Below, piece by piece: positions 13,771 to 59,467 of a stretch of DNA of 64,000 nucleotides. The position numbers were made by a program, and so were the translations under genes. The notes under the pieces were generated by a model. That model did no database searches, was not told where the DNA came from, and was given only the letters and a program-made list of their open reading frames with translations. The stretch is from positions 103,356,001 to 103,420,000 of the forward strand of contig NW_024704742.1 of NCBI RefSeq assembly GCF_018977255.1. Reading direction: 5' to 3'. Position 1 is the stretch's first letter, and every line of letters begins with the position of its first letter. This DNA comes from Callorhinchus milii (taxonomy: Eukaryota).

Positions 13771-14889
13771 ACTCAATACAGGTCATGCAAAGTGATTATA
13801 TAATTAAATAATAATAATAAAAAAAGTGATAGAACAAACTTGCGACTTTGTGTAGTCTAATAATTTAATAATAATCTAATAATAATGTAATCGACCACAG
13901 TGAAGTGCTCTGGGACACTACCCGGTATGAGGGGTGCTATGTAAATGCAAGTTGTTATTGTAATTGCTCTTAACTGCTAAGCAGATTTCAACCGTGGTGA
14001 CAATTCTGGTCACTAAGCGTAGCCATTTTATAATAATAATAATCCTTGCATTTGATGTAGCACCTTATCACATTATTGAGACGTCCCAAAGTTCTTCACA
14101 GAATATATTGTAATGTGAATTGATTGTGTTTATGCACATTTCAAATGGTTTTCATTTGTTGTGCTGTTCCTGTTACTCTCTGTACAAGGTTTTGTGCTAA
14201 AAGGATTTTTTCAAATGTGGTTTGTCAAATGTGCAGAAATAAATGAAAATTATTTGTGAGGTGCATATATCTATATTCCTCTTTTTATATGATTAACTAA
14301 AAAAATTTAGATAGAAAATAGCACCGAGGCCACTAGCAAGTATTGTTGAACGCACACTAAGCCATCAAAAATATGTGTTTGAGAACCACTGTGCTATGGT
14401 TAGCTCCTATGTCCCTATTACAACATTTACAACCTGCGCATTAACACACAACACATTTTCCAATCTTAGAAGGTCAGTGGAGAGTGGGAAATGTGATAAT
14501 TATATTATCTCCTATGTTGCTGGTCTGTAATCAGTTACCACCTTTCACTTGACCAGTGCCTTTTTTTCCCCCGTTGGACTATATTGTATTTGGTTCAGTT
14601 TGTGAGTACTTTGTATGAGTGCCTGCATTTCATTCAGATTTTGCCAACATGTGTTGCAAGAGTTCGACAGTGCTATATTGAGGAGGCATTCCAAAGCAGC
14701 CAACATTCCTTGTAGATTTGGGAGAAAAAATGAGTAACTCGGTTACCTGTGGAGAGACTTTTCATTCCTCTAGCCTGGGGCTGGCTATTGCTTTCTTGAT
14801 TAGTATTTGTTTGTTGGTTTGTTAGTTTTGGGGGCGCCCAAACCTCCCTGTATTTACTTCTCTTGACTTGCCAGTCTTGTTACGTATAG

Positions 14890-19780: not shown

Positions 19781-20302
19781 TTTTATTAGTTTCTCATAAC
19801 ACGCCTTGTCATTTTTATTCTTAAAATAAAGTACACAGCAAGTAACCGTGCCAATCTAAGTCAGGTACATTTGGAAGTACAATGCAATGTAAAAAATGTT
19901 TATTGTGTCCATGCAATGCTTTTTTAGTGTAACAAATGTGCCCTTGGATGTTATGCACTTGTTCTGATATGTGCTTCCCTGTGGAAGGAAGAGAGCTGTT
20001 GGATGGTTGCATTTCCAACTGAGGAACAACAGGGGAAGTAGAAAAGCTGCTCCTAGTAACTGTGACTAATCACTGCATCAGCACCAGAGGTCATTCCTGC
20101 TGCAGTTATTGTGCCACAGTGTTCTGAGAGATGAGGCCTGTCATTTGCCCAGGGTTACCTGATGTCACAGAAATTCTGCTGACTTGAGTGCTTGCTGGCT
20201 GTACCAGTACTGCTCCATTCATGCCAGCAGCAGAAGAAAATTTTCCAGCTGCTCACAAAAACAAAAAAGAGGAAAAAATACATTTTTAATAAAAATAAAT
20301 AA

Positions 20303-23159
20303 CCAATCCTTACACTTGATGTAGCGCCTTCCACATAAGGAGGACGAGCCAGGGGGAGGGGGAGGAAGGTGATTAAAGGCGCGGTTGAAAAGAAAGGTCT
20401 TCAGCTGAGACTTGAAAATAGGAAGAGAGGGGGTGAGGCGAAGGGAGTGAGGAAGGGAGTTCCAGAGCCTCGGGACGTAGTGGCTGAAAGCACGGCTGCC
20501 GAGGGTGGAGCAGAGGAATCGGGGGACAAGGAGGAGGCCAGACCCGGTGGAACAAAGGCAACGGGCACTGATATGAGGAGAGAGGAGGTCAGAAAGGTAG
20601 GGGGTTGCAGAAGAGTGGAGGGATTTGAAAACAAGGGTGATGATCTTGAAGTCGATCCTCTCTGGGATAGGCAGCCAGTGCAGTCTGGTAAGGACTGGGG
20701 TAATCGGGGAGTGGAGTTTGGTGTGGGTGAGAATGCAGGTGGCGGAGTTTTGTATGACCTGGATTCTATGGATGGTAGTGGAGGGGAGGCCGGCGAGGAG
20801 GGCATTTAAATAATCCAGCCGAGAGGTGACTCGGCATGGACCAGGGCTTTAGCGGCTTTTGGAATGAGGTATTGGCGGAGACGAGTGATGGGTCGGAGGT
20901 GGAAGAAAGCGGTGCTGGTGAGGGACAGGATGTGGGGGAGGAAGGATAATTGGGGGTCGAACCTGATGCCTAGATTGTGTACGGGTTCGGTGAGTTTTAG
21001 GGGGAGGTTGGGTAGGTGGAGGAGGTGAGAACCATGTGATTTTAGACGTCGACGAGAGCCAAAGAGTATGGTTTCCGTCTTGTCAAAGTTCAGCTGAAGG
21101 AAATTTTGCTGATCCAGCCCTTGAGGTCAAACAGGCAGGCTGACAGAACATCAGGGGACGGGGGGTCACAAAGAGAGGTGGAAAATAGAGTTGGGTGTCG
21201 TCCGCAAACATGTGGAAGTGTACCCCATGTCTGCGGATGACATCCCAAAGAGGGAGCATATAGATCAGAAAGAGGAGGGGTCCAGCCCTGGTCACAGATA
21301 GAGAGGATGTCATTGGTGAATTTAACAGGCGCAGTCTGTACTGTGGGCGGGGCGGAATCCAGACTGGAGAGGTTCGAAGAGGGAGTGGGAGGAGAGGTGT
21401 GCGCGAAGTTGATTTGCAACAACGCATTCTAGGACTTTTGTGAGGAAGGGCAAGTTAGAGACAGGCTGGGATTTGAGGGATCTAGGGAAGATTTTTTGAG
21501 GAGGGGGGTGATAACAGCAGTTTTGAGGGGGGCAGGGACTGATCCGGAGGAGAGGGACTGGTTGATCACATCAGCCAGCAGTGGGCAGAGAAGGGAGAGC
21601 TGGGTGACCAGCAAGCTGGTGGGGAGGGGGTTGAGGCAGCTGGTGGTGCATTGGCATTGAATGTGAAGATTGAGGAGGCCTGAGGCGGTGCACGGAGGAG
21701 GTAGTGGGTGATGGAAAAAAGGATTGTAGAGTTGTTTTTAGCCTCCAAGATGATGTTGGAGTAGAAGGCAGTTTTTGCACGTGTCAAAGAACAGCGGTAG
21801 CTGTGGAGATGCTCGAGCCACAGTTGGTGGTGAACTGTCAGGCCAGTCTTCCGCCATCTGCGCTCGAGCAGCCGGGTTTGGGTTTTTAGGGAGCAGAGAT
21901 GGTTGTTGTACCGGGGGATCGGGTGGGTTTGGAGATGGTCCTGGATTTCAGGGGACAAGGGAGTTGAAGGTGGAGGAGAGGCGATCATGGAGCAGCTGCT
22001 TCAGGATCTCCACAGGTGGAAGGCCAGAGGGATAGAATATTTGATGATGTGAGGGCCTTTGTGAGGGTCTCAGAGGGTAGCCTTTTCCAGGGGCGGTAGA
22101 GAATGGTTGAGGGCTTGGTGAAGGAGATAGGGGTGTGAGAGGAGAAGGAGATGAGGAAGTGATCCGAGATGGCCTTGTCCACTATGCTAAGGTTGGAAAT
22201 GTCAAGGTCGTGGGTCGAGGGCATGACCACGGTTGTGGGTTGGTGAATTTATGTGAAGGGTGATGTTTAGGGAGGAGAGGAGGGCAGTGAAGTCGGAAGA
22301 AGTGGTGCAAGGGGAGTTTAGGTGGAGGTTGAAATCGCCCATTATGAGCAGGCATTCGGAGCAGAGGGACAGAGGAGAGTAGAGATGGAAGGAGCTGGGA
22401 GGCTTAGGGGGGCAGTAGACTAGTAGAATTTTCAGTGGGAGAGAGGGATGGAAGAGGGTGAGGTGCTCGAAGGAGGGGAAGCAGTCAGAGGAGTAGCGGG
22501 TAAGACAAGGGAGGCTTTGGAGATGAGAGCCAGCCCGCCGCCACGTTGGTTTGGACGGGGGCTGTGGTGGAAGGTGTAGCCTGTAGGGGAGGCTTCACTA
22601 GGGGGATGGGATTAATGGGGCAGAGCCAGGTTTCTGTGAGCCCAAGAATGTCAAGGTGCTCATCCAGATAAGGTCATGAATGGTGAGGGCTTTGTTTGAG
22701 AGGGAACGGACATTTTGGAGGGAAATGCAGATGGGATTGCTGGAGGGAGGAGAGGGAGGAGAGAGTGATGCGGAGAGGATTTTAGGGTGTACAGGAGAGA
22801 TGGTTGTGGAGAGTGGTGTGAGTGGAGAGTTGGGGAGGGAACGTATGAGGGAGGGGGAAGTTGTGTTTGCCTTAAGGAAGCAGTTTGAGTGGAGGGAGTG
22901 AATGATTGGACACTTGGGGTTGCTGCTCTGGGCCAGCCAGTGCTGGGAGCCAGGATGGGCCCGGCGGAGGATGCCCAGGCTGGTGCAGTGGGAAGTGCTG
23001 ACGGGGTCGAGGAGAGAAGGAAGGCGGGGAGGGCGGTGGGAGAGAAGGACAGAGTGGGAGTAGTGGATAGAGGGGAGTGGGAGGAGAGACATTTAGAGTG
23101 GAGGGCAAGACTCGGGTCGGGGCGGCAGCCAAAACGTGCACACAGTGCGAACGCAGGGA
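20303..23159 (-). mobile_element. Near full-length single-ORF L2 LINE with internal deletions (pseudogenised)
   Basis: N-terminus MSLLPLPSIHYSHSVLL, APE (LQNVRSL, ISDHFLISF), RT remnants ([30 protein letters not shown]), C-terminal domain; many frameshifts. Confidence 0.94.
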
Positions 23160-23345
23160 GATTGAAAGCACAGTCGACGAGGAAGGTCTTGAGATGGGTC
23201 TTGAAGATGGCAAGCGGAGGGAGCGAGCAGGATGATAGGGGTTTTAGGAGATCGCAGAGGTAGGGGGGAGCAAGATGATGGAGGGCTTTGAAGGTAACGA
23301 CCAAGATCTTGAACTGTATGATGGTGATGGGAAGCCAGTAGGCAC
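23160..23345 (-). mobile_element. Older L2 C-terminal fragment abutting the 5' end of the long L2
   Basis: WLPITIIQFKILVVTFKALHHLAPPYLCDLL...FKTHLKTFL. Confidence 0.8.
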
Positions 23346-24374
23346 CTCTCATCTGAACTGAATGAAATATTTCAACATCAAATTGTATTGATAGCATTGT
23401 TTCAGCTGTCAGGGGTTAAAACTTTAGTCGTTACTAGAGTCCAACTTAAGATGATGGCCAAAATAGTTATTTTTTCCCTATGTCCTTATAAAGGGTGAAA
23501 TTCCATTCGAAAGACACATAAAGAAAAACGTCTTCATTAATCTGTGTTAATGAAGCCACCTTAAATTATGAGAGCCTGGACACTTTAATAGGATACTGAC
23601 CAACTTAACTATAACAATATGTTTAATATTCTATTCACAGGGAAACTTCGCTGGAAAGCATTATGTTTCACTAAGTGGCTGCCTTCAAAGAGAAGGTTTT
23701 GTGATTAAAAGACTAATGTTATATTGGATAAGTAGTGGAATGATATCAGACTCCTTTGAATCCACAAGCTTGTGTTAGAAATGGATTTTCATGATATCCA
23801 ATGCCAAGAGAGTAGTGATGGAGGCCACAAGATGTGCCTGAATATCAGGCTACTTTGCACCTGGCTTTTTCCGACTTGCACAACCGTTAATTGGGTAGCA
23901 GAGATTACAAAATAAATCTCTAATGGTATTCATTTGTTTTAACATCTGATATCATCCCACTGTTCATGCAAATTATGTGACAAGTGTGTATGTTTCTGAA
24001 ACATTCATTAATTTGGTCAATCTAAAAGGATTGTCTGCTGCTGCTTCCCATTGCCCTTCCCATTGGATGGGAAGGCAACCAATTACCTGCGCCTTACAGG
24101 TGACTGACAGCCACTTGTGAATGGTTGCCCACTCACCCAGTAATATGTGGCTCCGGCTGTCAATCAATCATGGTTTGACTCCTCCCATTTCCTCCCTTGT
24201 TCCTCCCCATTCCTCGACCCCCTCATTGATTGACAGTCCAACTCCAGCCACGGAACCACTCAACAAACAGCAGCAGGTAGAGGAGTGGGGAGCCGGCTGG
24301 TCGGAGAGGTAGGGATGTGCCAGGGTATGAAGTGATTTGTACACGAGCGTGAGGATCTTGAAATTGAATTCATA

Positions 24375-40634: not shown

Positions 40635-41419
40635 CTGCAAAGAGGGAAAGAATACAGTGTGAAACCTGTTGCTGGTTGGTTGTACGGTTTTGTTCCAATC
40701 TTACAGCTGTCATCAAAATCAGGTCCAGACGAAATGAAAATCTGCTAGTTTTTAATAAAATCTACTAATTGATAATGCATAACATATGAATATTATCACA
40801 TTTACAAAAAATTATAGTAAACATTGTTTTGCTGGTTGACAGCCTAAAATGACAATTAAGCTGGCAGAAAAATAATGCTTTTGACTCTTGCTCAATTTCT
40901 GAAGTTCAACCATCAGTGAATCGTATATGTAATCATATATACTTCATATATATGCACAGATGATTAAGCACAAATCTTCTCAGGTCCCAATTGTACCTTG
41001 GGCACCATCGTTGTTTTCTACATCAACCACAATGTTCAATTCTATTTTCTCAATTCCCAATATTGGGGAAGAGATTTATTCCTAATCGCATGAGGTGGTT
41101 GGTCTTGAAGTTACTCAAGTTAATCAAGTACATGGCAAAACAAAACTTGGAAATTATTTCAGAACAACAATTTGCATTTATATAGCATTTATGTAGCAAC
41201 CTTTATGTATGGCGAGATCTTAAGTGCTTTAAAAGTACATAAATTGCTTCAAAATAAAACATAATTTAGAAAAACACTTGAGATCCGAAATTCTTAATTT
41301 CCATTTTTTTAAAATTCTTAAAGTTCAGGCCTAATTTGGAAGTTGGAAGTAGAATTTGGGGCGTGCAGATGTTAAAAATGGATATTTTCTCCATGTCCAT
41401 GCTCGATGGGATACGTAAA

Positions 41420-46441: not shown

Positions 46442-47676
46442 TAGAATCATTCTTTTGTTCATTTTTAGCAACTACTCAGTAGAGACTGAAAGAATAAACG
46501 CTGTTACTTAAAAACTGTTATCCCACTGGCTTTAATGACTAGTATAACTGTACACCACTCTTCCCCCATTTACTTGACGGATTCACAGTTCAGATCAGTA
46601 AATGCCAACTTTTTTAAGTAATTGGTAACAAATACATAACTGTACAACAAATATATGGGAGTAAGTACTTACCACAATACTTATCCTAAGAACTATTTCT
46701 TCTTTAAGGTGGATGTTAATAGTTTGACCCACTGTATACAACTGATTACTGAGAACCTTCTATAGATATAAAATCTTCATACAGTGGGTGAACTAAAGGA
46801 AACAGTTTGGGTAAGCCTACCAATAGGTTAAGCTTTTCAAAGAGCCAGATATTGGGACTGGCAAAATTGGTCGATCAACACAGGGATTTGTGGTGCATTT
46901 TCATAATGTAATACCAGTCTCTCAGGATAACCAGGATTCTTTTGTCTAGCAGGGATATTTGTCCTGGGTAGGAATGAAACATGACTCCTATAAAGTTAAT
47001 CTTTTGGAAAGATTCTATTTAAAATGTTAACTAGAAGGACCAACTATCTGGAGATCAAAACCTCTGTTTAGTTTGCTCTCCTGGGTCTTTTCTTGTACTG
47101 TGTCCTCCCCAGGTATTGTAAATACTATCATTGCTGTCATTCATAGACATTTAAAGGGACCTGCAGTTTGAGCCTGGTTTCAACTCTTCCTTGCCAAGGT
47201 TCATAACAATCTTTCTTTTAAGCAATAAAAGCAACAATAGAAATAAAAAAACTCTTGCTAACTCCTAGATTTTGAACTTTATAATTTGTTTACTTACTTG
47301 CCCTGGGTAGGAGCCCTACATGATAAATGTACGACAGTGTTCCTTAATAGTCTGTTTTACCCATGCAGCTTTGGTCATCTGTGTCCAACAATTTGTATAA
47401 CCGATCCCTATGACTGAAGAAAAATAACTGGATGGAGCATATAGGGTGCAAAATAAGATGTAACAGGATGAATTCAGATGATGGAAAATGCAAATAATTC
47501 TGATCACTTGATTGTTTGATTACCCATCAATAAGAAAACCATGTGTTATGAGATCCTTACACAATACAAAAGAAATGCATTCAAATTCAAAAATGCTTAT
47601 AAAAAATCCAGAACCATATCTTTCAACTTTTAGAAGAACACAACATTTAAACAATGATACAAAAATTGCTACTGAC

Positions 47677-47746
47677 CTTAGCGAGATCCACCAAAGTGTT
47701 TGCCTGATCATTTAATTTTCTTTGTTCCATTTTTACACTTCGTAAC
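47677..47746 (-). CDS. KCNN2: KCNN2 exon (distal CaM-binding helix / coiled coil)
   Basis: 1 nt + [23 protein letters not shown]; 70 nt; acceptor attcag, donor gtcagt; phase fits the upstream split codon. Confidence 0.96.
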
Positions 47747-48649
47747 CTGAATGTAAGATTGAGTTAGTTAGGTGGTTTCATTTTTCCGTACAAAATTACC
47801 CCCAAAAGAACATGCAGTAACTTCACAAGGAGCAAACCACCTGTATGAACAATGAATTTTCCAAAGTTCGGTTCTCATCTATCTGGTAAATGAGGAGCAT
47901 GCTGCCTTGGCATGAAAAAAGTGGGTGGCAAAGAGAAATGTATGCTTTCTAAATATCATTAATGTTAGCTTCTGATGAAGTAACATAATAAAACTGTATA
48001 TTTTACACATGTCAGACCAAAGCTTTGGCATTCATTAAAAGTCTAAGTATCGTGACCAATAGACATAGGATGGAAGCGAGCCAAGTGCAGAACTATCCAC
48101 AAAACTATCCATAAGAGCTCATGGGAAAGTGTTTCCTTGAAACACAACACTTTAATGGTGACTCTATTCTTATTTGGAATCCCAAGGACACCTAAGGTAC
48201 AATTTGGTGTGGTATATACACACATATATATATATTTATTTCATACAATTAATAAAATGATATTAGTTTACCAACACCAGTAAATGCTTATCAAGGTAAG
48301 GGGCAGGGATATAAAAGAAATTAGCTAATCTACTTTGCGCTTGTTATAAGCGGAACCACCCTCAGCTCAAGGGTCAGATTTAGTGTGCACTGTATACTGC
48401 TCTAAATACATTTTAATTCAAGGTTTTTTTTTCTTATGGGATTTCGTGCAACTGTGCAATGAATTGGAACAATTTTGTGCTAACAAATCTGTAGTTAGAT
48501 GAATTCCCAAGACACATTCAAATGTTTAAAATTTGAACACCTAGTTGAGCTCCATATTAAAGCATGCTCAGAACTTCAGAAACGTGAAGCTACAAATTAA
48601 AAGTCTCCCTCAAAATTATATTGTTCTTTGTCTTTTTCTTTCATGCCTT

Positions 48650-49050
48650 CCCATCTTCTCTCTTCCTTTCTGGAAGACATTTTGGTTGACAACTCCATGA
48701 GCATGTAACACCCTTCCGGTGTTTTACTCAAGTGGCCATCTGTGAACTTGGTTCAGTTATTCAACTGAGAGGCACCACAGATGAGACTGATCCAGTCATT
48801 GCTCAACTCTTTCCTATGAGACTCTTCCGTCAAGAGAGGGTGGAGGGAAAGGGGTCAGTGGACAGTGTTTGGGGCTCTGGCTTAATTCTCCTCACTAGCT
48901 CAAGGAGCTGAAGTCTATAGTAGTGTCATTAATGCTACCCCATCTGAGATCTGCGCAAATTAGGGTTCAATGCTGTGACATGTTGGGTCTTGTGGGACAC
49001 ATTTTTAGTTCTGTGGGTGGCTTTACCAACAAAGCCATTAAGGGAGCTCT
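48650..49050 (-). mobile_element. Ancient tRNA-headed SINE (AmnSINE2-like, tentative)
   Basis: Minus-strand head agctcccttaatggctttgttggtaaagcc, then gcagatctcag and ccactgacccc blocks; probable relatives near 31065-31150, 10265-10445 and 60455-60560. Family name from memory. Confidence 0.45.
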
Positions 49051-50984
49051 CATATCCTCATGTGAATGCATCTAGCTTCCTCTTGAATGCATTCATACTA
49101 ATAATGAAACCAATGACATCACCGGGAGGGCAATATAAAGTTGAGGGGAAAAATTTTAAGTTCCGCTTGTAAAACTTTCAAAATGAATGAGGAACTTCTG
49201 ATAATTTTGACTACTGCTGTCTTATTTCTGGTGCACCAGCTTGCGTCAGCACCATACCAAATAAAATCCAGATTCAATCAGAGTTTCAAATGTTTCTGAG
49301 GCTGTTCTTCTTTGAAGGCTCCTGGACCCGCATAAGCAAGAGCTGTTCCTATGTCTGTGTGGCCAGATACCAGCCCTTTACAATCTGAAATGGATTCTAT
49401 TAAGAGAACTTTGTTTCCAATGTAAACTCAGTGATAAGTGAGATTCTTATTAAATCAATTAAATGTCTTGCAGCTAAGAGTCTCATAACATTGCCCTTTT
49501 GAACAATTTCCTTACAATCTAAATTATTTGGTGAAATTTTGTATTTATTAATATTTCAGCTTGGGGGTGGTCATCTTTTAATTTTATAATTTTTCGCCCG
49601 CAAGATACACAGTCACTCAACATAATAAGGCACAGTATCAAATGCAAGGATTATTATTATTATGAAATGGAATTATGCGGTATGAGGGAAATTTCAATAA
49701 TAATAATCATCATTATATATTCAAATGTTTGCTAGAACTAAATAATATTGAAGAATTACTACTTCAAGGAAACAATTCAAAGAACGCTTCAAGAATTGAA
49801 GATTATCCTGTTTGTTGCTTTCTGAATCTTGCATTTATTTACAGCCACACCTATCTGAGAATATGATTTATTTCAACCTAATTTTTAAGTCAACTTCATT
49901 TGTAAAATGAAAGTAAAAATTCGACAAATGGTAACGTTTTGGAATGTGAATAGTAATTAGAGGAAGCTGTTTTAATTCATAAACAGATACTTGAGATGTG
50001 GTACTTTATAGGTAAAGTTATTCTTTTAAAAAACATTTAACATTTATAATGTTTTTGGCCATTCATATTGGATGTTTGATAGGAAAGTTTAATTTAGCAC
50101 AAGAATAAAATGCAGACTGTTAAACAGCTCTTGCACTGAAATTTTGGGTGGATACTCAAAAGTATTGGTATATTCTATAGATCAAAACATCACAGGCTGG
50201 ATCATTTCTTTATATTGTCACTATTTTGTGCTGTTCCGTTTTAAGATGATCTACAATATCATGACTTCTGATCCCAACTTCATGCCATTTCCTTATCAGC
50301 AATTTCACTCTTCAGAGTGGATGGGGTTGACGTTTCCAATGCAAACTCCTAAAAGAGCATTCATAACTAACAACCCATATGTAGTGAGATGCCATCTGTG
50401 AATGCTAATTCTAAAGCACATCTTAAAATTGCCAGTACGTTTTGTCAGCACGGTTTGTCAGCATGTTCATTTTGTTCTCAGGATGCCTGGCAAAGTAATT
50501 TTTAAGTGGAAAAGCTGAACGCTGCCATCCAGTAACTATAGTGATTGAACACTTGTGGCCCTGAACAGGAGTTGATGGATCCTTTTATTTCACTTACATC
50601 AACACCAAATTTATGCATTTGAGATAACAACCAACCATGATCTACCAGCACTTTGAAGGGGAGAAAACAACAGCTGCTTGCTAACTCTTGCTATCAGTGA
50701 GCATTAATTGTAACCATGCCAATTCATTCACATTCTAGGACATCAACAGTGGAAATAAATTCCTCTCAGGCATGAGTAGTCACCCATTGGAAAACAGATT
50801 CAAAAAACTTATTCAACCATGGAATTCTAAGCAAATTCAGACCCCAATAACCAAATCTCCAAATACACTCCACCAATACACCCTCTACAACAACCAAATG
50901 GCAATGATAATATATTGAGGGCAATAATGGCAACTGTCAACAAAACAAGTATTTTTACATATGACTCAAGACTGTGACACAACA

Positions 50985-51290
50985 AAAAAGACAACTTGCA
51001 TTTGTATAGCGCTCCTCACGCAGGGCAGTGACCCAGAGTGCTTGACAATGGTGGAACATGATGCTGAGCCAGTGGGAGGTGACTGTAGGCACGGTCAAAG
51101 AAGAAGGTCTTCAGGAGCGGCCTGAAGATCAGCAAGGAAGGGGCAAGGCGGAGGGATTGAGGGAGAGTGTTCCAGAGTTTCAGGGCTGAAAATCAGGCCA
51201 CTAATGATGGAATAGAGAGCATCAGGGACAAGCAGGAGGCCGGAGCCATTTGAGTGGAGGCAACGAGTAGTGGGTTGGTGAAGTAAGCAG
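50985..51290 (-). mobile_element. L2 3' fragment
   Basis: acaacttgcatttgtatagcgc tail; [12 protein letters not shown] remnant. Confidence 0.8.
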
Positions 51291-53542
51291 GACACTCCCT
51301 ACCTAATATATCCCACTCACAATATGTTTTTGTTTCATTTATATGCATGCCACAGAAAGGTGAAACATTGTACTGTTATCAGTAGAATATTATGCATGGA
51401 GGTGTTGAACACTTTGGTTATATTCTAGATGTGAAAGAGATCTGACCAGCTTATTTAGTTATAAACTTCCAATCACTTGTGGAATGAATAGTGTGTTCAA
51501 CACCTTTATGTGCAGTATCCTCTGTGGGTTTATTGCATGAAATTAGCTTGCAAAAAACAGACTGACTCTCAAGATAATCTCCCGGTTTCTTTGAAGATCC
51601 TCTTAAACTGCATTATTGATCACTGTCTGCTTTTGCCCAAGGAACAAATTGCTACAAGTGCTTGATCTCCATCTGTTACATCTGTAACTGTGGCAATAGA
51701 TGGGCTGCCAACCAAGAGTGATGTGAGTGTGTTAGAAATTGCTCTTCCAAATATAGTCATCTGGATTACTTGTCCCTGAAGTGATTATTCAAGCAAGTAA
51801 GAACCATTGTTTTGAAATGACTTTTATACTGAAACTGATTGTTTTTAGAATCCTCAATATTAATGAAGATCTTTTTAAAGCAATTCTCCATGCTACTTGA
51901 AGGAGAAAGAAACTTGGAAAACAAATAAATGTATTTGTTTGGGGCTAACCATATTTAAGAGTATCCAAACCAGATTAGGAGTTCCAGATATGCACACCGC
52001 CTATGCATGGAAATTTCCCATTTGTCTGCAATGAAGTCTGCAACTCTTTCACCAGAGGGATGCACACTGTGTACCTAATTCTGGAAAGTATTTGGTGCAG
52101 GATGGCAGGAACCAGGGCTTGAGGACCTTAGAATATGCAAGAGGGTCCAGCTAGAGTTTAACCAGCTAAAACCGCTTAGCTTACCATCATAAGCTTTGTC
52201 TGATAAGTTATTCGCAATACTCGTCCAGCTAGGACCACCCTACTCAATAAAAGCTTTGGTTTGCAGGATTAACAGGAGCTTAATGGGAAAATCCTACCTC
52301 AAGTCTGTCCCAACCAGTTCTGCTGATGAGTCAAACTGGTTGGTCTGTCATCATGTCTCGATAACCAGATGACCAAGACACTCCCACAAAGGACTGATTC
52401 GATTCCTGTGGCAAATGATGAACTTCCACATATGAAATTCAGATGTTGGAACTTTCCTTCCAACGTTTCGCAAGATTCACTATCATTATTTGGCAACAAG
52501 GGGACATCTCAAAAAGCATACTAACAGAATGCATATCCATTAACATCTTGACATTATCATGATATGTACATAGTATTGTCAAGACACAGGCATGGGTGCA
52601 AGATGTCAGTGTCCCTAATCATCTGGAACTCCTACTTTACAATATCAAGTCAGATCTTTAGAACATCTGATATCAGACTCCGATTTTCTGGATCTGGCAG
52701 CAGAATGAACACCCATTTAACACTGCTCATTGCCTCCAGAGACAGGCTGCCCGCCTGAGACAATCCAGTAATGTAAAAGGACAAATGTATAAAAGAGGGA
52801 CCTGAGGGATAAAAGAATCAATGTGAGAAAGAGATCAGAGAGAACCAGAGTGAAAGCAAATAGAGGGGTGAAAACTGTGATGTCTGTGAAATACCGCAAT
52901 TTCCAGTTGATAAGTAAAGAACACCTCTCACCTGCAATGCAAGTGGATTCCACCTCCGTCCTACTTGAGCTTGGGGTAGTTTGGCTAATCGAGCTGACTC
53001 ACCATCGGCCAGCTACACTCTGATGCTTTTCATCTAACACAATATCTTCATTGATCACACATTGCCTTCAAATGCAACAGAGTAACCAGTCTCTCAAAGC
53101 TCCGCAGACCTGTGTGTACTCACCCATTACCCATAACTATAATGGACATCAAAACCAAATAAAGTCATAGTGCGAAGCAGCACCAGAAAAAGTGTCACTA
53201 ATAACTCACTTAAGTCATCCCTAAAGAACACTACTTACCTCAGCGATTAACAACAGTTGCTGCTATTATGCTTGTGCCACTCATGAATGCACTATAAGCA
53301 TAATCCAAGAAACAAAAAGCCAATGGAGACACAACATGTTTTTTCCAAAGCTTTTAACTGCAATAAACAAACTCCCGGGAACCCTCTGAAACAAAGAATG
53401 TAAAATCAACTGCACAATTATCAAACCTTGAAATACTACAATGTTAAGTAATGAAATAAACAAAATCCACAAGAAACAACAGGTTATAAACGTAACCAAG
53501 CAGATTCTCTTCCTAATTCCCATTCTTTACCAAACGCCAGTG

Positions 53543-53765
53543 TCATAGAATCATAGTAATTTACTGTGCAGAAGGAGGCCATTCGACCCAATAATTCAGC
53601 ACAGGCTTCCAGAGCAAGCTGTTCATTCATACCTATATCCCCATAGGCCCTCTAGGCCTCTATTTTTCTTACACCTGTCTACTTGCCTCTTGAAACCTAC
53701 AAATGGACTCTGCCTCTACTACCTTACTTGGCAGAGCATTCTACATCCCAACAACTCTGTGAAAA
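53543..53765 (-). mobile_element. CR1 3' fragment
   Basis: catagaatcatag tail; cacagagttgttgggatgtagaatgctctgcc on the minus strand. Confidence 0.75.
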
Positions 53766-53975
53766 ATGAGACATCTCAGAAAACATCAGAACTTTGCAAG
53801 ACACACTACAACTAACATTAGCTCACACCTATTTACCCACCTAGATCAATAACATGCTCAATCTTTACCAAACGCCAGTGTCATAGAATCATAGCAATTT
53901 ACTGTGCAGAAGGAGGCCTATGGGATAGAAATTCCATGTGGGTTAAGATGTTTTTGATTTTCTTAGCATTTCATA

Positions 53976-54719
53976 CAACAACAACTTGCATTTATATAGC
54001 GCACTCTATGCCAGGTGGCATCCAGAGCGCTTAAAATGGCAAAGCCTGATGTTGAGCCAGAGGGAGGGGGAAGGTGACACACGGTGACCCATAGGCATGG
54101 TCAAAGAGGAAGGTCTTTAGGCGTAACCTGAAAATGGGGCAAGAGGTGGCAAGGCAAAGGGATTGAGGGAGGGAGTTCCATAGTTTCAGGGTGTAGTGGC
54201 TGAAGGTGGAGCGGAGCATTCGAGGGACAAGGAGGAGGCTGGAGCCAGTAGAATAGAGGCAGTGGGTAGTGCTGTTAGGAGAGAGGGGGTTGGAGAGATA
54301 GAGGGGTGCCAAGGCGTGGAAGGATTTAAACACTAAAGTGAGGATCTTGAAGTCGATCCACTCTGTGACAGGGAGCCAGTGGAGTTTGGCAAGGACTGGA
54401 GTAATCCGGGTGCAGAGTTTGGTGCAGGTGAGAATGTGGACGGCGGAGTTTTGGATGAGTTGAATTTTGTGAATAGTGGAAGAGGTGAGGAGGGCGTTTG
54501 AGTAGTCCAGCCTAGAGGTGACAAAGGCATGGACAAGAGTTTCGGCAGCTGGTGGGATGAGGTATTGTCGGACGCGAGCAATGTGGTGGAGGTGGAGGAA
54601 AGCGGTCCTGAGCCAGGGACCGGATATGGGGGAAGGAAGGATAACTGGGGATCAAACCTGAGGCCTATGTTGTGCATGGGTTCAGAGAGCTTTAAGGACA
54701 GATTGGGTAGGTTGAGGAG
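53976..54719 (-). mobile_element. 5'-truncated L2 with a 10-bp TSD, nested in a MITE
   Basis: FKSFHALAPLYLS..LWNSLPQSL..LKTFLFDHAY; flanked by GCATTTCATA at 53966-53975 and 54720-54729. Confidence 0.9.
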
Positions 54720-55426
54720 GCATTTCATAGCATCCACAATTTGACAATTCTTAAATGCCCATCTTAATTTTGAAGCTGATTTTCTGTATTTTCTTTTAAG
54801 TACAATGAAAACTTTTTAGAACAACACTAGTGTGGACAGCTGTTAAAAAGTATTCAGGAGAAGGTCATCCATTAGCTAACAGATTCAGTTCAATGCAATG
54901 TGGATCAGGAGGTGAATATCAGGCTTTGACTGCAAAACATAGTCAGATGCTCTGGATAAACACAGCAGAAATCACAATACCCTTTAAAACCTAAGTAATT
55001 AAAATGCTATGAACAGATACTTCATTAATAGTTGCTGGCAGTGAGGAGTTTCTATCGGTCTGTAACCCTTAATAAAAGGTATTAAACTATTTTGACAAAG
55101 TACAATCTGTATTTTCCATTAGTACATTCCAAGATTATCATTTGTTTTATATAACAGATTTTTTTGCTGGCAGTTATTTAGCTTCAAGGGAATAATAAAT
55201 AAAAACTATTCTGCAGAGGAGAACTGTTTAGCTGCAAGAGCTATTGAATAAAAGTAGTGCATTGCTGGGTTAAAGCTGTATCTAGGCTATCTTTTTAATA
55301 ATATTCGTCTTATTGTCATTTCATTCCTGCTGAATTTCACTTATCACAGATACGATCATGTTTCTGATCACGTTTCCATGGGTGTGCTCATACCATCAGA
55401 TTCACAACAGTAAGACCTCTTTCTGG

Positions 55427-55432
55427 CATGCA
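55427..55432 (-). promoter_or_regulatory. RBFOX-binding motif TGCATG downstream of the ARK microexon
   Basis: catgca on + strand, about 53 nt into the intron downstream of the microexon donor. Confidence 0.55.
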
Positions 55433-55484
55433 TACGGGTTTGAAAAATCTTTGGAATGTATGAGAAACAGCACATAAAACTTAC

Positions 55485-55493
55485 TTTCGAGCT
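55485..55493 (-). CDS. KCNN2: KCNN2 9-nt alternative microexon (ARK insert)
   Basis: Minus strand ...gaaactag|AGCTCGAAA|gtaagt. Inclusion gives CA|A GCT CGA AA|G TTA CGA = Q-A-R-K-L-R, matching the known SK2-ARK variant. Long U-rich tract upstream. Confidence 0.88.
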
Positions 55494-56336
55494 CTAGTTT
55501 CATTTTGTTGAAATAAAAAAAGACAAACAAAAAAGAAATTAAATATAAAATAAGGTACACCAGAAAACAAGGCACAAAGCAATATAAATTTCACAATTCG
55601 TATCATCACACTTATCTAAACAAAAAGGTATAAGCAAACACCTAACATATCTTTCATTTAACCCTTTGAGAAAATGAACCATTGTTTTGTTAAAACAAAT
55701 CTGTTTCCTTAAATCACTCTCCAAAAGTGATTATCTGAATTGCTGTCATGTTAGCTATTTTAGTGCACAATGAGCATGTGCCATAAATGTGCAAAACAAG
55801 AACAAGCTACAGCCAAATAAGCTGATTCCAAATATGTAAAAGATTACTATCTTTTTAGGTGATCTTGTTTGGAATAATGTTCTGTGTCTTCAAAGAGTTA
55901 AACAAGGGACCGACGTAAAACTCAACGAAAAATAATTAAAGGTCATGCATTAGTTTTCACAAAATTAGCAAAGAACATTTAAAAGTACAGTATCATACAG
56001 TATTAAATTGCACAAAAAGGAACCCAACTACTATTTTGTGTGTTTAGTTGCAAGTGATCAACCTGTGACAAACAATGAATGATTTAAGTCAACATTATTC
56101 AAAGTGTTTGTGGATTTTAAAATAAATTCAGCAGGTTTTATACTAAGGATGCAATGCTAAGGTATCAGTTAGACACAAGTCAAAATACTATCGAAAGTAG
56201 ATGCCAACAGTAGCATGAAAAGTACTTTTTTTTCACAAATAGGTGCACTTAAAACAGCAGACATAAAAGCAGTTACTTGGTGAGACAACATAGTTTCTAC
56301 AATACAAGAGCGTCAGAAGAACAGAATTAATACTCA

Positions 56337-56495
<159 letters not shown>

Positions 56496-58034
56496 TTATC
56501 TTTTGAGAATATAACACACGTTTAAAATACGTAAGAAGTTAAAACAGATAGATAAAAAATAAATCTAATGAGTCTTACACGGTACGGTCTAAATTTGGGA
56601 TAGTTTGGAAAGGGATTCTTTAATCGATTAGAGTTCCCATTGACCTGCAGAAACTCCACTCTGGATATTGTGCAAATTCACTGCTCTGTGCAGTGCCAGA
56701 ACACATGAATTCTGGGCTGTCACTGGAGGAGGTAAGAGGAGACTTGAAATACAGTGCTTAGCTTTCATTCTGTTACATATTGTTAGTATTACAAATTGTA
56801 CTGACACTCCCACTAATGGCTCACTGATAGATACTAAGGCTGAAGCCCACATCTTCCCTTATGGGGATGGGCAGTAATTACATTGCACTTCCATTCTCAG
56901 AGGTTATCAACAGTAATTGGGACCTCCATATTCTCCAGACTCCTGATGATTTGCCTGGCAGCTGCAGAGAAAGAATCCAAATGCTTGCAAGTTCTTGTGG
57001 ATTAAGCAGCCGAGGACCCACTAAATACCAGCCTGGTAGGAATTACGGATGTCCCCTTAGCTCTGGAATCCAAATTGGTTGGCTCTGGAATCCAAGATAG
57101 CCCACAGGATGTCTCTGGCTTGTAGCTGTCTCTATTCTGGTAGTCAATGTGTTAGATCATATCATGAATCCTCTTCTTTCCTTTTCTGCTCTCCACTGTA
57201 CCATTCTTTTCCAGGCTTAATGTGCAACACACATTTTCATTCCTTGAGTTTGGTGATCTTAATTTCTGACAATGTAGGGATGTCTTCAGTACACATTCTC
57301 TTTTATAAACAATTCAGGACCATACAGGCTGGTAGCAGACCAATGGCCCTTTCCCCTTTAGAACAAGCAAGGAGAAATGAATCATTTGATATTGTTTTCT
57401 TATTGAGTGAATGAAAAAAAATCCTTGCATTTCATGTAGCGCTGTTCACATCAGGAGGACATCTTGGTGGGAATAGTACACAAGATTAGTTCAGATGAAG
57501 AAGGCCTTTTGTCCCATCGATTTTATCCTTTCAGAATACCCACCCTATCATCTACATATCATAGCATGAAGCTACTGTTTAAATTAGTTTCGTGTCCTGG
57601 CCTCAACCATCCTTCCTCGTAACCTATTCTAGCGCTAATTACCCTTTGAGTAAAGAAATACTTCCTGGTTTCTGCCCTGAAACTGCCCTTTGCAACTCTG
57701 AACCTTCGTCCTCTTGTTCAACTACCTTGGTGCATCTGAAAGTATTGTTCTTGTCTTACTTTTGCATCCCATTTAAAATATTATACACCTCTATGTATAA
57801 ATAAGGAGTAATCTCAAGCAGGAGTCTAGTTAGCTTTGAGTGCTGGTATGGGAGCTCAGCAACAGTTACCAGAAAGGGACAACACTTGAGATGTTAATTA
57901 ATTGATGGTTCAAAACGTGCTAAATAAAATCTGGGCCTATTAATTTCAGTTTTGCTATTCTGAGACCTTAGTCTAGAAGATGCAAAGTTAAACACATTAC
58001 CAGCAAATTGCCTTCTAAGGGACACAAAGACTGG

Positions 58035-58263
58035 GAAATTCCACCTGGGTCCAGATTTACTCTAGTTCTGCAGCATTTCAAAGTTTGCAGAATTTGACAA
58101 ATTCTTAGATATAGTTTTAATTTTGAAAGCAGCTTTCTATAAATTCTTTTTAGAATTACTGAAAGCTGGCTTCAAATTTAAGACTGAATTCAACAATTTG
58201 CCAAGTTCTGGATGCTTTGAAATGCTAAATAAATAGAGTAAATAAAGACTTAAGTGGAATTTC
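58035..58263. mobile_element. Palindromic MITE, about 230 bp
   Basis: gaaattccac...gtggaatttc termini with internal arms tttactcta/tagagtaaa, agcatttcaaag/ctttgaaatgct and cagctttc/gaaagctg. Confidence 0.8.
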
Positions 58264-59066
58264 TCTCTCCCATTTTCTAAGCTATTGGAGAGATACTGCT
58301 GAGTTTATGAGGATGAGTTCACTCTAAGGAGTACCTAACCAAACACTTTCTTATCACTTACTGCTGCAGCCCCAGTGACACGAAAATGTACATCTTTCTT
58401 TGGTCAAAACATTTGGTACTATTCACAGAGACTGTGAATTGCCATTGCTACCTACTTTTCTTTGTGACCTTTTAGGATGCTTCGACTGAATCTGTTTGCT
58501 GGTGATGAGGAACAATGTATCATGTTTGGAATTGCTTGTGCATTTAATTTTACTACAATACAATTACAATCACAAAATAAAAGGTTAATTTGAACTCTGG
58601 ATGGAGGTAGCGTTCATCCCATGTGGTGTCAATCCCATTGTACTGAATCACCTTATATTTCCACAGTCATTCTCAAAGCTGGATCCAGATTCTTGGATGA
58701 ATTGTCTAAGACACAGTGTGTTGCCATCTCTCATTTGCCCTAGGCAATCTTACACTTCACACTGCATTTTAACAAGCAATTGAGAGCATGCAGAAAGTGA
58801 GAGAAATGTACGCTGTGTGCCACCGGGATTCTATGTATAATAATAGTCAAGCACTGAAACATTAGTGCAATATCAAAATAAATCACGATGTGCAACATTG
58901 CTGTAGAATAAATGCTTTGCAGCAGAGAAATGTGACTGGATAGTGATTTTTTCGCATCGTTCTGCTGTTTGATTTGAGTTCCTGAATTGAATATGGAGGA
59001 GATATTCTGTTCCTGAAAACAGTTTAGGAAGATAATTGTACAGTTTTCATTCTAATTTCACCTCTA

Positions 59067-59213
<147 letters not shown>

Positions 59214-59467
59214 CTATAATGTAACAAGCAACAAGGAAATAGTTCAAAATGTTATTCCATTTAAAATATTTAGACATTGGTTTTAGGAGGTGCACTGCGT
59301 TATGAATGTCCTTTCATTTTGGGTGTTCTTGCTTGAATTGAGGCCAGACTGATGAGAGGAAGTGTTGCTCCCTCTTCCTTCCACAGGAAAAAAATTGTTA
59401 ACAGTTTGGTAGACTCCTCAGAGAAGGACAGTCAGTGTCGGAAATGGGCCTCCCGCCCCATCCCTGC

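What the first reader, a model, noticed from the sequence alone, without database searches (positions are those of the whole stretch)
55380..55612. Hidden 9-nt ARK microexon of KCNN2 with its splicing-control architecture
Seen: minus strand tag|AGCTCGAAA|gtaagt at 55485-55493. It is in frame between the ...AIH(Q) and LRSVK exons and gives Q-A-R-K-L-R. There is no AG for 115 nt upstream (55496-55610), the U-rich tract is displaced about 15 nt from the acceptor, and TGCATG lies about 53 nt downstream. The nearest UGC motifs are about 80 nt upstream, not next to the acceptor as in classic SRRM3/4 targets. Known: the SK2-ARK (SK2-b) variant of birds and mammals alters calmodulin binding and Ca2+ gating, and downstream RBFOX sites usually promote inclusion. 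Inference: if this is a cartilaginous fish, the switch predates the bony/cartilaginous split and may be RBFOX-driven. Gene predictors often miss exons this small.
Basis: partly seen in the sequence, partly recalled or inferred. Interest (0 to 1): 0.8.

Follow-up and report, generated by a model that had tools for sequence, protein, structure and literature searches.

The report
Known KCNN2 ARK microexon, chimaera copy
This is the elephant-shark copy of a tiny, already published optional exon that adds three amino acids (Ala-Arg-Lys) to the calmodulin-binding part of the SK2 potassium channel; it is real and very old, but not a new kind of thing.

Summary
On the minus strand, tag|AGCTCGAAA|gtaagt lies at 55493-55485, in the 8,591-nt intron between the KCNN2 exon ending ..AIH(Q) and the exon starting LRSVK. 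It is in frame and gives Q-A-R-K.

It is not chance. The coding-plus-splice-site pattern occurs once in the window against 0.04 expected. An unnamed vertebrate contig aligns over 227 nt around it at 76% identity, E 2e-34.

The window matches Callorhinchus milii KCNN2, so it is a cartilaginous fish. The second SK gene of this genome has a 9-nt AQK exon in the same intron. That exon shares a >100-nt AG-free zone, a gtaagt donor and a TGCATG at +57, against +53 here.

The exon is known: chicken, rat and mouse SK2-ARK/SK2-b, a mouse retina micro-exon and a human brain micro-exon. RefSeq already has skate KCNN2 isoforms that differ only by ARK. The two C. milii KCNN2 models I saw lack it.

No RNA reads could be laid, so inclusion in this species and RBFOX control remain inferred. 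Verdict: an ortholog missing from those models, of low novelty.

The parts
56338..56465 (-). KCNN2 exon encoding [42 protein letters not shown](Q), the first part of the calmodulin-binding domain. It ends in phase 2 (..CA|gtgagt).
   Evidence: Pfam CaMBD PF02888, E 9.7e-20. 41/41 identical to SK2 PDB chains.
55331..55552 (-). Conserved intronic element that contains the microexon, from -59 to +154 relative to it.
   Evidence: blastn against the unnamed vertebrate contig locus L018: 227 columns, 76% identity, E 2e-34; alignment.
55496..55610 (-). AG-free zone of 115 nt upstream of the acceptor.
   Evidence: Gaps this long are 0.29% of AG gaps on this strand.
55510..55538 (-). U-rich (polypyrimidine) tract, set 17 nt back from the exon.
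   Evidence: Pyrimidine content is 8-9 per 10 nt from -50 to -21.
55496..55509 (-). A-rich spacer AACAAAATGAAACT between the U tract and the acceptor AG. It holds UGA where the paralog and ortholog L016 hold UGC.
   Evidence: It differs from L018 at one base.
55494..55495 (-). Acceptor AG.
55485..55493 (-). 9-nt microexon AGCTCGAAA, which gives (Q)-A-R-K in frame.
55479..55484 (-). Donor gtaagt. Read through, it gives AAg taa, a stop straight after K.
   Evidence: A bamboo-shark RefSeq model ends ...AIHQARK (P0105).
55427..55432 (-). TGCATG, an RBFOX-type motif, at +53.
   Evidence: It aligns in register in L018 and L016. The paralog has one at +57.
55331..55381 (-). Conserved downstream block (+104 to +154) of unknown role.
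   Evidence: 46 of 53 aligned columns are identical to L018, by my count on the alignment printed; coordinates.
47677..47746 (-). Next KCNN2 exon, (Q)[23 protein letters not shown], the second part of the calmodulin-binding domain.
   Evidence: Pfam CaMBD, E 1.1e-06. PDB matches.

Best explanation
This is the Callorhinchus milii ortholog of the known 9-nt cassette microexon of KCNN2 (SK2). When it is spliced in, Ala-Arg-Lys is inserted between ..AIHQ and LRSVK.. in the calmodulin-binding domain. This gives the SK2-ARK (SK2-b) isoform, which in rat and chicken channels is less Ca2+-sensitive and reaches the surface less well.

Shown here: the exon, its frame, its splice sites, its position in KCNN2 and its conservation.

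Inferred: how it is used. The exon has a consensus-like donor but a weak acceptor region, because the U-rich tract is set back behind an A-rich spacer within a long AG-free zone. I infer that the exon is skipped by default and is included where activators are present. The best-supported candidate activator is RBFOX, bound to the conserved UGCAUG 53 nt downstream. SRRM3/4 may help, and PTBP1 may repress through the U/C-rich tract.

My odds: about 0.93 that it is the true ortholog and can be spliced, about 0.75 that it is alternative rather than constitutive in this species, and about 0.5-0.55 that RBFOX is the main activator.
For: Position and frame. Chance: 1 match against 0.04 expected, and 1 of 452 AG-N9-GT sites with the full architecture.

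Same junction as the solved SK2 splice variant: in 3sjq_C the two exon matches end at residue 51 and start at 55. In the 8 other SK2 sequences that match both exons they are contiguous. The rat sequence P0007 reads AIHQ-ARK-LRSVK.

Orthology: the quick tree places the window's product in the KCNN2 clade with SH-aLRT 99. C. milii models match at 96/96 and 95/96 in the last exon.

Conservation:
- L018 aligns over 227 nt at 76% identity, E 2e-34. L016 aligns over 42 nt at 83%, E 1.8e-6. Both encode ARK.
- Of 107 proteins newly returned by the search around the insert, 40 carry ARK. They are KCNN2 of mammals, birds, a gecko, frogs, a caecilian, many teleosts and a skate. Another 47 parsed by the script carry AQK, plus 2 more read by eye.
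- Skate X1 and X2 differ only by ARK.

Paralog: C21 has ...aatgcag|AGCCCAGAA|gtaagt, giving AQK. Its AG-free zone is 106 nt and TGCATG lies at +57, the only TGCATG on that strand of the 8.4-kb locus. The C. milii RefSeq X1 and X2 of that gene differ only by AQK.

Function and regulation from papers (passages read):
- ARK right-shifts the Ca2+ response (apparent KD 0.48 to 0.61 uM), changes CaM binding and lowers surface levels; its share rises during development (PMC4048344).
- SK2-b reduces Ca2+ sensitivity (PMC6048120).
- The 9-nt Kcnn2 cassette is abundant in both forms in mouse retina and lies in conserved intron sequence (PMC3664805).
- The human 9-nt KCNN2 exon is listed among novel brain micro-exons. 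Downstream RBFOX binding enhances micro-exons, PTBP1 represses them, and alternative micro-exons have T-rich sequence more than 20 nt upstream (PMC4317164).
Against: No RNA evidence exists for this species.

Both C. milii KCNN2 protein models that I saw lack ARK (P0088 and P0240).

The two orthologous contigs were found with a pattern that required GTAAGT and TGCATG. They cannot show how often the motif is kept.

An unbiased blastn of the two paralogous introns found nothing significant at the microexon; the best hit was E 0.2, elsewhere.

The long AG-free zone is not universal: it is 48 nt in L018.

No paper found in my searches links this exon to RBFOX, SRRM4 or PTBP1. The target tables of the RBFOX CLIP paper and of the 2014 microexon paper were not held.
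Confidence: 0.85

Rival explanations
1. The exon is real, but SRRM3/4 is its main activator and RBFOX is not. This would make it a typical neural microexon, with the downstream TGCATG secondary or irrelevant.
For: The architecture matches what is described for SRRM3/4-dependent microexons: very short, a multiple of three, a strong donor, and a Py tract and branch point far from the AG (bioRxiv 10.1101/2024.09.17.613571, passages). The homologous spacer position carries UGC in the paralog, which has TGC at -16 and -5, and in ortholog L016. The same preprint reports that a UGC is found in 74-79% of such microexons and is not strictly needed.
Against: In this gene the nearest UGC is 81 nt upstream. 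The spacer reads UGA where the others read UGC, and the ortholog L018 shares the UGA. The TGCATG is kept in all four sequences compared. No SRRM4 data for this exon were found.
Confidence: 0.35
2. In this species the exon is constitutive, so every KCNN2 mRNA carries ARK and there is no switch.
For: [quoted passage not shown] Many of the ARK-bearing proteins returned are teleost KCNN2 models. The donor is a perfect gtaagt.
Against: Skate KCNN2 has both forms, differing only by ARK, and the C. milii paralog has both forms, differing only by AQK. Both C. milii KCNN2 models lack ARK. The acceptor region is weak: the U tract is set back and an A-rich spacer precedes the AG. Several teleost ARK entries are labelled as numbered isoforms, which does not show constitutive use.
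Confidence: 0.15
3. It is a chance look-alike or a decayed pseudo-exon that the chimaera no longer splices.
For: No RNA evidence could be obtained here. Public C. milii KCNN2 models lack it.
Against: The expected number of such patterns is 0.04 per window. The splice sites and coding potential are intact. A 227-nt block around it is conserved with another vertebrate, E 2e-34. The paralog shows the same design.
Confidence: 0.03

Closest known systems
SK2-ARK / SK2-b splice variant of chicken, rat, mouse and human KCNN2 (PDB 3SJQ; Scholl et al. 2014, PMC4048344; mouse retina micro-exon in Wu et al. 2013, PMC3664805; human brain micro-exon in Li et al. 2015, PMC4317164, Supplemental File 1)
   Same: The same gene, the same exon junction, the same length of 9 nt and the same residues A-R-K. 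It is embedded in conserved intron sequence, as reported for mouse.
   Different: The species differs: a holocephalan, where the two protein models I saw omit the exon. Here the spacer before the acceptor has no UGC. Expression and function were not tested in this species.
KCNN2 isoforms X1 and X2 of the skate Amblyraja radiata (XP_032873334.1, XP_032873335.1)
   Same: A cartilaginous fish KCNN2 with and without ARK; the two models differ only by these three residues.
   Different: This is an elasmobranch, not a chimaera. I saw only the proteins, not the skate DNA, so the flanking architecture could not be compared.
AQK microexon of KCNN1-type genes (mammalian SK1 per PMC4048344; C. milii XP_007897053.1 and XP_007897052.1 on contig C21 of this genome)
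   Same: A 9-nt exon in the homologous intron and the same phase. It shares the gtaagt donor, an AG-free zone of more than 100 nt, a U tract followed by an A-rich spacer, and a TGCATG at +57 against +53.
   Different: It is a paralog, on the KCNN1 side of the tree, and it encodes Q instead of R. It has UGC at -16 and -5. There is no extended DNA similarity of the flanks.

Membership tests
KCNN2 ARK (SK2-b) microexon, orthologous copy | The host gene is a KCNN2 ortholog. | tested here: met
   The CaMBD exon is 41/41 identical to SK2 chains. Pfam finds Ion_trans_2 and CaMBD. The gene sits in the KCNN2 clade with SH-aLRT 99 in a quick tree. C. milii KCNN2 models match at 96/96 and 95/96 in the last exon.
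KCNN2 ARK (SK2-b) microexon, orthologous copy | It lies in the intron between the exon ending AIH(Q) and the exon starting LRSVK. | tested here: met
   The intron runs 56337-47747 and the microexon occupies intron positions 845-853. The solved variant 3sjq_C has its 3 extra residues at this junction.
KCNN2 ARK (SK2-b) microexon, orthologous copy | It is 9 nt long, preserves the frame and encodes A-R-K with Q kept. | tested here: met
KCNN2 ARK (SK2-b) microexon, orthologous copy | It has canonical AG and GT splice sites. | tested here: met
   tag| and |gtaagt.
KCNN2 ARK (SK2-b) microexon, orthologous copy | The exon and its sites are conserved at the orthologous position in other vertebrates. 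| tested here: met
   L018 aligns over 227 nt at 76% identity, E 2e-34, and L016 over 42 nt at 83%. 40 of 107 newly returned proteins carry ARK. The organisms behind L016 and L018 are unknown.
KCNN2 ARK (SK2-b) microexon, orthologous copy | It is included in mRNA of this species. | not testable with these tools
   The one read-laying run allowed per session was used and nothing was laid, so no read evidence could be obtained.
KCNN2 ARK (SK2-b) microexon, orthologous copy | It lowers the Ca2+ sensitivity of the channel. | not tested
   Known only from papers on chicken and rat channels.
RBFOX-enhanced cassette exon | (U)GCAUG lies in the proximal downstream intron. | tested here: met
   TGCATG at +53. 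The chance of one starting in a given 31-nt stretch of this strand is 0.014.
RBFOX-enhanced cassette exon | The motif is conserved in relatives. | tested here: met
   The paralog has one at +57, the only TGCATG on that strand of the 8.4-kb locus; this comparison is unbiased. It is in register in L018 and L016, but those were found with a pattern that required it.
RBFOX-enhanced cassette exon | RBFOX binds, and inclusion depends on RBFOX. | not testable with these tools
   This needs CLIP or a minigene. The RBFOX CLIP paper's target tables were not held.
SRRM3/4-dependent neural microexon | At most 27 nt, a multiple of 3, a strong donor, and a Py tract and branch point set back from the AG. | tested here: met
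   The architecture is as described in the passages read.
SRRM3/4-dependent neural microexon | A UGC lies between the Py tract and the acceptor AG. | tested here: not met
   The nearest TGC are at -81 and -88. The paralog (-16, -5) and L016 do have it. The preprint read says it is not strictly required.
SRRM3/4-dependent neural microexon | Inclusion is neural or endocrine and depends on SRRM3/4. | not testable with these tools
   No RNA data could be reached.

The most novel reading that the evidence does not exclude
The calmodulin-binding-domain microexon may have existed, together with its regulatory design, before the duplication that separated KCNN1 from KCNN2/KCNN3. That design is a set-back U tract, an A-rich spacer with a UGC, a gtaagt donor and a UGCAUG about 55 nt downstream. 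On this reading KCNN3 later lost the exon. Chimaera KCNN2, and at least one other vertebrate lineage, changed the spacer UGC to UGA. That change would shift control from SRRM3/4 towards RBFOX, and possibly widen inclusion to RBFOX-positive non-neural excitable tissues such as muscle, heart or sensory organs.
Probability: 0.3. Interest if true: 0.45.

Novelty: new member of a known kind. Interest (0 to 1): 0.25.

Why it matters
The ARK insert tunes how SK2 channels answer to calcium and how many reach the membrane, so it affects the firing of neurons and hair cells. Finding the exon intact in a chimaera, beside a twin exon in the KCNN1-type paralog, dates this switch to at least the common ancestor of jawed vertebrates. 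It also corrects the two C. milii KCNN2 protein models that I saw. The conserved TGCATG, the UGC/UGA difference in the spacer and the conserved 51-nt block downstream give concrete elements for a minigene test. Beyond that, it adds little to what is published.

Tried and rejected
RNA evidence. The look-up of sequencing runs listed 12 runs of one coded organism. I did not resend.

Paralog intron comparison. blastn of the C1 intron against the C21 intron gave 17 hits, all E >= 0.2 and none at the microexon. The paralog likeness is therefore at the level of motifs and design, not extended sequence.

RNA structure. RNAalifold on the window and L018 (2 sequences) predicts a weak hairpin that pairs the U tract with the A-rich spacer and the exon. 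Only 2 of 44 pairs have compensatory changes, and neither lies in that hairpin. I do not build on it.

Other strand and other features. There was no Rfam match at E <= 1 in 54500-56600. Only short stop-to-stop frames of 41-63 aa overlap the region. No tandem repeat lies in 47000-59400.

Earlier findings of this scan gave nothing relevant.

Papers not held: PMC3992522 (RBFOX CLIP targets), PMC4390143 (the 2014 microexon programme) and PMC3372094 (the SK2-b structure paper). Their tables may name this exon as a target, and I could not see them.

Records behind L016 and L018 could not be searched for the neighbouring exons, so their organisms and the rest of their genes are unknown. L017 from the same scan is a chance hit, with no Py tract, an AG 34 nt upstream and a different composition.

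The careful tree did not finish in the time allowed, so the quick tree is used.

Searches for a C. milii KCNN2 protein with ARK found none in three protein searches and one cluster look-up. Because clusters are shown by one representative, this is weak evidence of absence.
Full report
WHAT IS THERE

On the minus strand the window reads ...tttttttatttcaacaaaatgaaactag|AGCTCGAAA|gtaagttttatg... The 9-mer is at 55493-55485.

A six-frame scan and local translations show a KCNN-type gene on the minus strand. Its exons in the window are:
- a pore exon, 61160-61020;
- an exon at 59213-59103 (GAGCTALVV...DTQLTKR);
- the first calmodulin-binding-domain exon, 56465-56338, which ends ..ATT CAT CA|gtgagt;
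- an exon at 47746-47677, which begins cag|G TTA CGA AGT GTA AAA (LRSVK...);
- the last coding exon, 40634-40347.

Pfam finds Ion_trans_2 in the pore exon and CaMBD in both flanking exons.

The intron between the two CaMBD exons is 8,591 nt. The 9-mer sits at intron positions 845-853. With it, the message reads CA+A GCT CGA AA+G = Q-A-R-K. Without it, CA+G = Q.

IS IT MORE THAN CHANCE?

A pattern that asks only for AG, the codons for (Q)A-R/S-K in this phase, and GT occurs once in the window on both strands. The mean in 100 shuffles is 0.04.

The intron holds 32 AG-N9-GT sites, and only this one has a gtaagt donor in the listing. Across the whole window there are 452 such sites on both strands. 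One of them combines an AG-free zone of at least 100 nt, GTAAGT and a TGCATG within 100 nt downstream, and it is this one.

- no AG from 55610 to 55496;
- a U-rich tract at 55538-55510 that ends 17 nt before the exon;
- an A-rich spacer at 55509-55496;
- TGCATG at +53;
- the nearest TGC at -81 and -88.

WHICH GENE, WHICH ORGANISM

The CaMBD exon is 41/41 identical to rat and human SK2 chains in the PDB.

The last coding exon is 96/96 identical to one UniRef Callorhinchus milii KCNN2 model (P0240) and 95/96 to another (P0088). Identity is 92-96% to sharks and lower to other vertebrates.

The own genome has 991.5 Mb. Its contig C21 has the same length, 10,696,575 bp, as the contig that carries a named C. 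milii RefSeq protein. So the window is from a holocephalan, C. milii by these matches.

A quick maximum-likelihood tree was built from 28 rows that I picked from the hits, with one nematode outgroup on a very long branch. The careful search did not finish. The tree puts the window's product in the KCNN2 clade (SH-aLRT 99) with the other cartilaginous-fish KCNN2.

IS IT THE KNOWN ARK EXON?

In PDB chain 3sjq_C, an SK2 entry, the match to the upstream exon ends at residue 51 and the match to the downstream exon starts at 55. In the 8 other SK2 sequences that match both exons, the two matches are contiguous. The same 87-residue rat sequence (P0007) reads AIHQ-ARK-LRSVK.

I read passages of Scholl et al. 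2014 (PMC4048344). They describe the 3-residue ARK insert in chicken hair-cell SK2 and in mouse brain. [quoted passage not shown] ARK right-shifts the Ca2+ response (apparent KD 0.48 to 0.61 uM), changes calmodulin binding and lowers surface levels.

A 2018 paper states that the SK2-b variant of rat or chicken reduces Ca2+ sensitivity (PMC6048120, passage).

Wu et al. 2013 show a 9-nt cassette micro-exon in mouse Kcnn2. Both forms are abundant in retina, and it lies in a long stretch of conserved sequence (PMC3664805, passages).

Li et al. 2015 list a 9-nt KCNN2 exon on human chr5 among 310 novel brain micro-exons (PMC4317164, Supplemental File 1).

I could not read the structure paper behind 3SJQ. 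I know it only from the reference list seen and from recall.

CONSERVATION: PROTEINS

A search centred on the insert returned 120 proteins, of which 107 were new.
- 40 carry ARK. They are KCNN2 of mammals (one cluster of 448 members), birds, a gecko, frogs, a caecilian, many teleosts including trout TSK2, and the skate Amblyraja radiata.
- 47 carry AQK, plus 2 more that my script did not parse but that read AQK. They are KCNN1 of mammals, birds, turtles, frogs, teleosts and gar, and one C. milii protein.
- 2 carry GQK: a catshark protein and a skate SK1.
- 1 carries ASTR.
- 14 have no insert. Ten of these are KCNN3-type and 4 are KCNN1-type.
- 1 could not be parsed.

The cluster look-up shows that skate KCNN2 X1 (718 aa) and X2 (715 aa) differ only by ARK. 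The C. milii proteins XP_007897053.1 (537 aa) and XP_007897052.1 (534 aa) differ only by AQK. A bamboo-shark model ends ...AIHQARK. This is what the window would give if the donor were read through (AAg taa).

The ARK switch in a cartilaginous fish is therefore already in public annotation. For C. milii KCNN2 itself, the two models I found lack ARK. No ARK form turned up in three searches. Because clusters are shown by one representative, that is weak evidence of absence.

CONSERVATION: THE PARALOG IN THE SAME GENOME

Four exon queries found only one other SK1-3-type locus, on C21. Its homologous intron is 8,013 nt. It holds ...ctttttgttttgccaaatcaatgcag|AGCCCAGAA|gtaagt, which gives Q-A-Q-K, at L007:3773-3781.

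The design is shared:
- The AG-free zone is 106 nt, against 117 nt here. Gaps of at least 106 nt are 5 of 532 in that locus and 24 of 3,851 on the window's minus strand.
- Both have a U tract followed by an A-rich spacer.
- Both have a gtaagt donor.
- TGCATG lies at +57, against +53 here. It is the only TGCATG on that strand of the 8.4-kb locus.

The tree puts this gene with the catshark GQK and skate SK1 proteins (SH-aLRT 96). They fall outside the KCNN2+KCNN3 clade (99), on the KCNN1 side, although RefSeq calls it SK2.

An unbiased blastn of the two introns found no significant similarity at the microexon. The likeness is one of design, not of extended sequence.

CONSERVATION: ORTHOLOGOUS DNA

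One scan of metagenome contigs used the exon, the donor and a TGCATG 30-60 nt further on as its pattern. It gave 3 loci.
- L017 is a chance hit.
- L018 aligns to window 55552-55331 over 227 columns at 76% identity, E 2e-34. It encodes ARK as AGCTCGGAA. The spacer TTTCAACAAAATGAAA.TAG differs at one base. A block at +104 to +154 (55381-55331) that was not part of the pattern is identical in 46 of 53 columns, by my count on the alignment printed.
- L016 aligns over 42 nt at 83% identity, E 1.8e-6. It encodes ARK, with an AG-free zone of 97 nt and a UGC 7 nt before the AG.

The organisms are unknown, and the records could not be searched further. Because the pattern required TGCATG, these two loci show that the motif is in register in a homologous alignment. 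They do not show how often it is kept.

HOW IT MOST LIKELY WORKS

Shown: an intact, conserved, frame-preserving 9-nt exon with a consensus-like donor, and an acceptor whose pyrimidine tract is set back behind a conserved A-rich spacer.

From the literature (passages read):
- Alternative micro-exons tend to have T-rich sequence more than 20 nt upstream. Downstream RBFOX binding enhances them and PTBP1 represses them.
- Neural microexons have strong donors and distant Py tracts and branch points. A UGC enhancer is present in 74-79% of SRRM3/4 targets, but it is not strictly needed.

Inferred:
- The exon is skipped by default and is included where RBFOX binds the UGCAUG at +53. SRRM3/4 and relief from PTBP1 are possible co-inputs.
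- The alignments show that the spacer position reading UGA here and in L018 reads UGC in the paralog and in L016. A UGC element is therefore probably ancestral and was lost in this gene.

I cannot place the branch point. The long AG-free zone is only 48 nt in L018, so a very distant branch point is not required.

WHAT REMAINS OPEN

It is not shown whether the exon is used, or is alternative, in this species.

I found no paper that ties this exon to RBFOX, SRRM4 or PTBP1 in text searches. The two papers whose target tables would say so are not held.

VERDICT

It is the chimaera ortholog of a published exon, absent from the two C. milii KCNN2 models that I saw. Its antiquity was already implied by skate RefSeq isoforms, by trout SK2 and by the AQK exon of KCNN1.

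The modest new points are:
- the twin design of the two paralogous microexons in one genome;
- the UGC/UGA difference in the spacer;
- a conserved downstream block of unknown role.

Noticed in passing
L007:3773-3781 (own genome C21:8619572-8619580, + strand): The paralogous SK gene has a 9-nt AQK microexon in the homologous intron. It has an AG-free zone of 106 nt, TGC at -16 and -5, and the only TGCATG of the 8.4-kb locus at +57. RefSeq names this gene SK2 (XP_007897053.1 and XP_007897052.1), but the quick tree puts it on the KCNN1 side.
   Followed up: yes
own genome G000: Four exon queries found only two SK1-3-type loci, on C1 and C21. The next pore-exon hit has E 0.02. No KCNN3-type gene was seen, so it may be missing from the assembly, lost, or missed by the search's first look.
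   Followed up: partly
window 55331-55381 (-): A 51-nt block lies 104-154 nt downstream of the microexon. It is identical to the unnamed vertebrate contig L018 in 46 of 53 aligned columns, by my count. It holds no GCAUG, and its role is unknown.
   Followed up: partly
window 56335-56338 and 55481-55486 (-): Reading through either donor gives an immediate stop (CAg tga; AAg taa). Several shark RefSeq models end exactly at ...AIHQ (P0065, P0235, P0236) or ...AIHQARK (P0105). This suggests truncated transcripts that end in this intron and lack the second half of the calmodulin-binding domain.
   Followed up: partly
window about 40635-40673 (-): One UniRef C. milii KCNN2 model (P0240, 392 aa) skips the LRSVK exon. 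It enters the last exon through an acceptor about 39 nt upstream (..ccaaccag|), which adds [13 protein letters not shown]. It may be a modelling artefact or a minor isoform.
   Followed up: partly
KCNN3-type proteins: All 10 KCNN3-type proteins among the listed hits lack any insert at this junction, while KCNN1 and KCNN2 have AQK/GQK or ARK. This fits loss of the microexon in KCNN3, or a lack of annotation.
   Followed up: no
window 12001-14000 and 20001-24000: These stretches have higher G+C (0.49-0.53) and strong positive GC skew (0.41-0.54) on the + strand, unlike the rest of the window. I did not examine them.
   Followed up: no
window 38197: A single N in the window.
   Followed up: no
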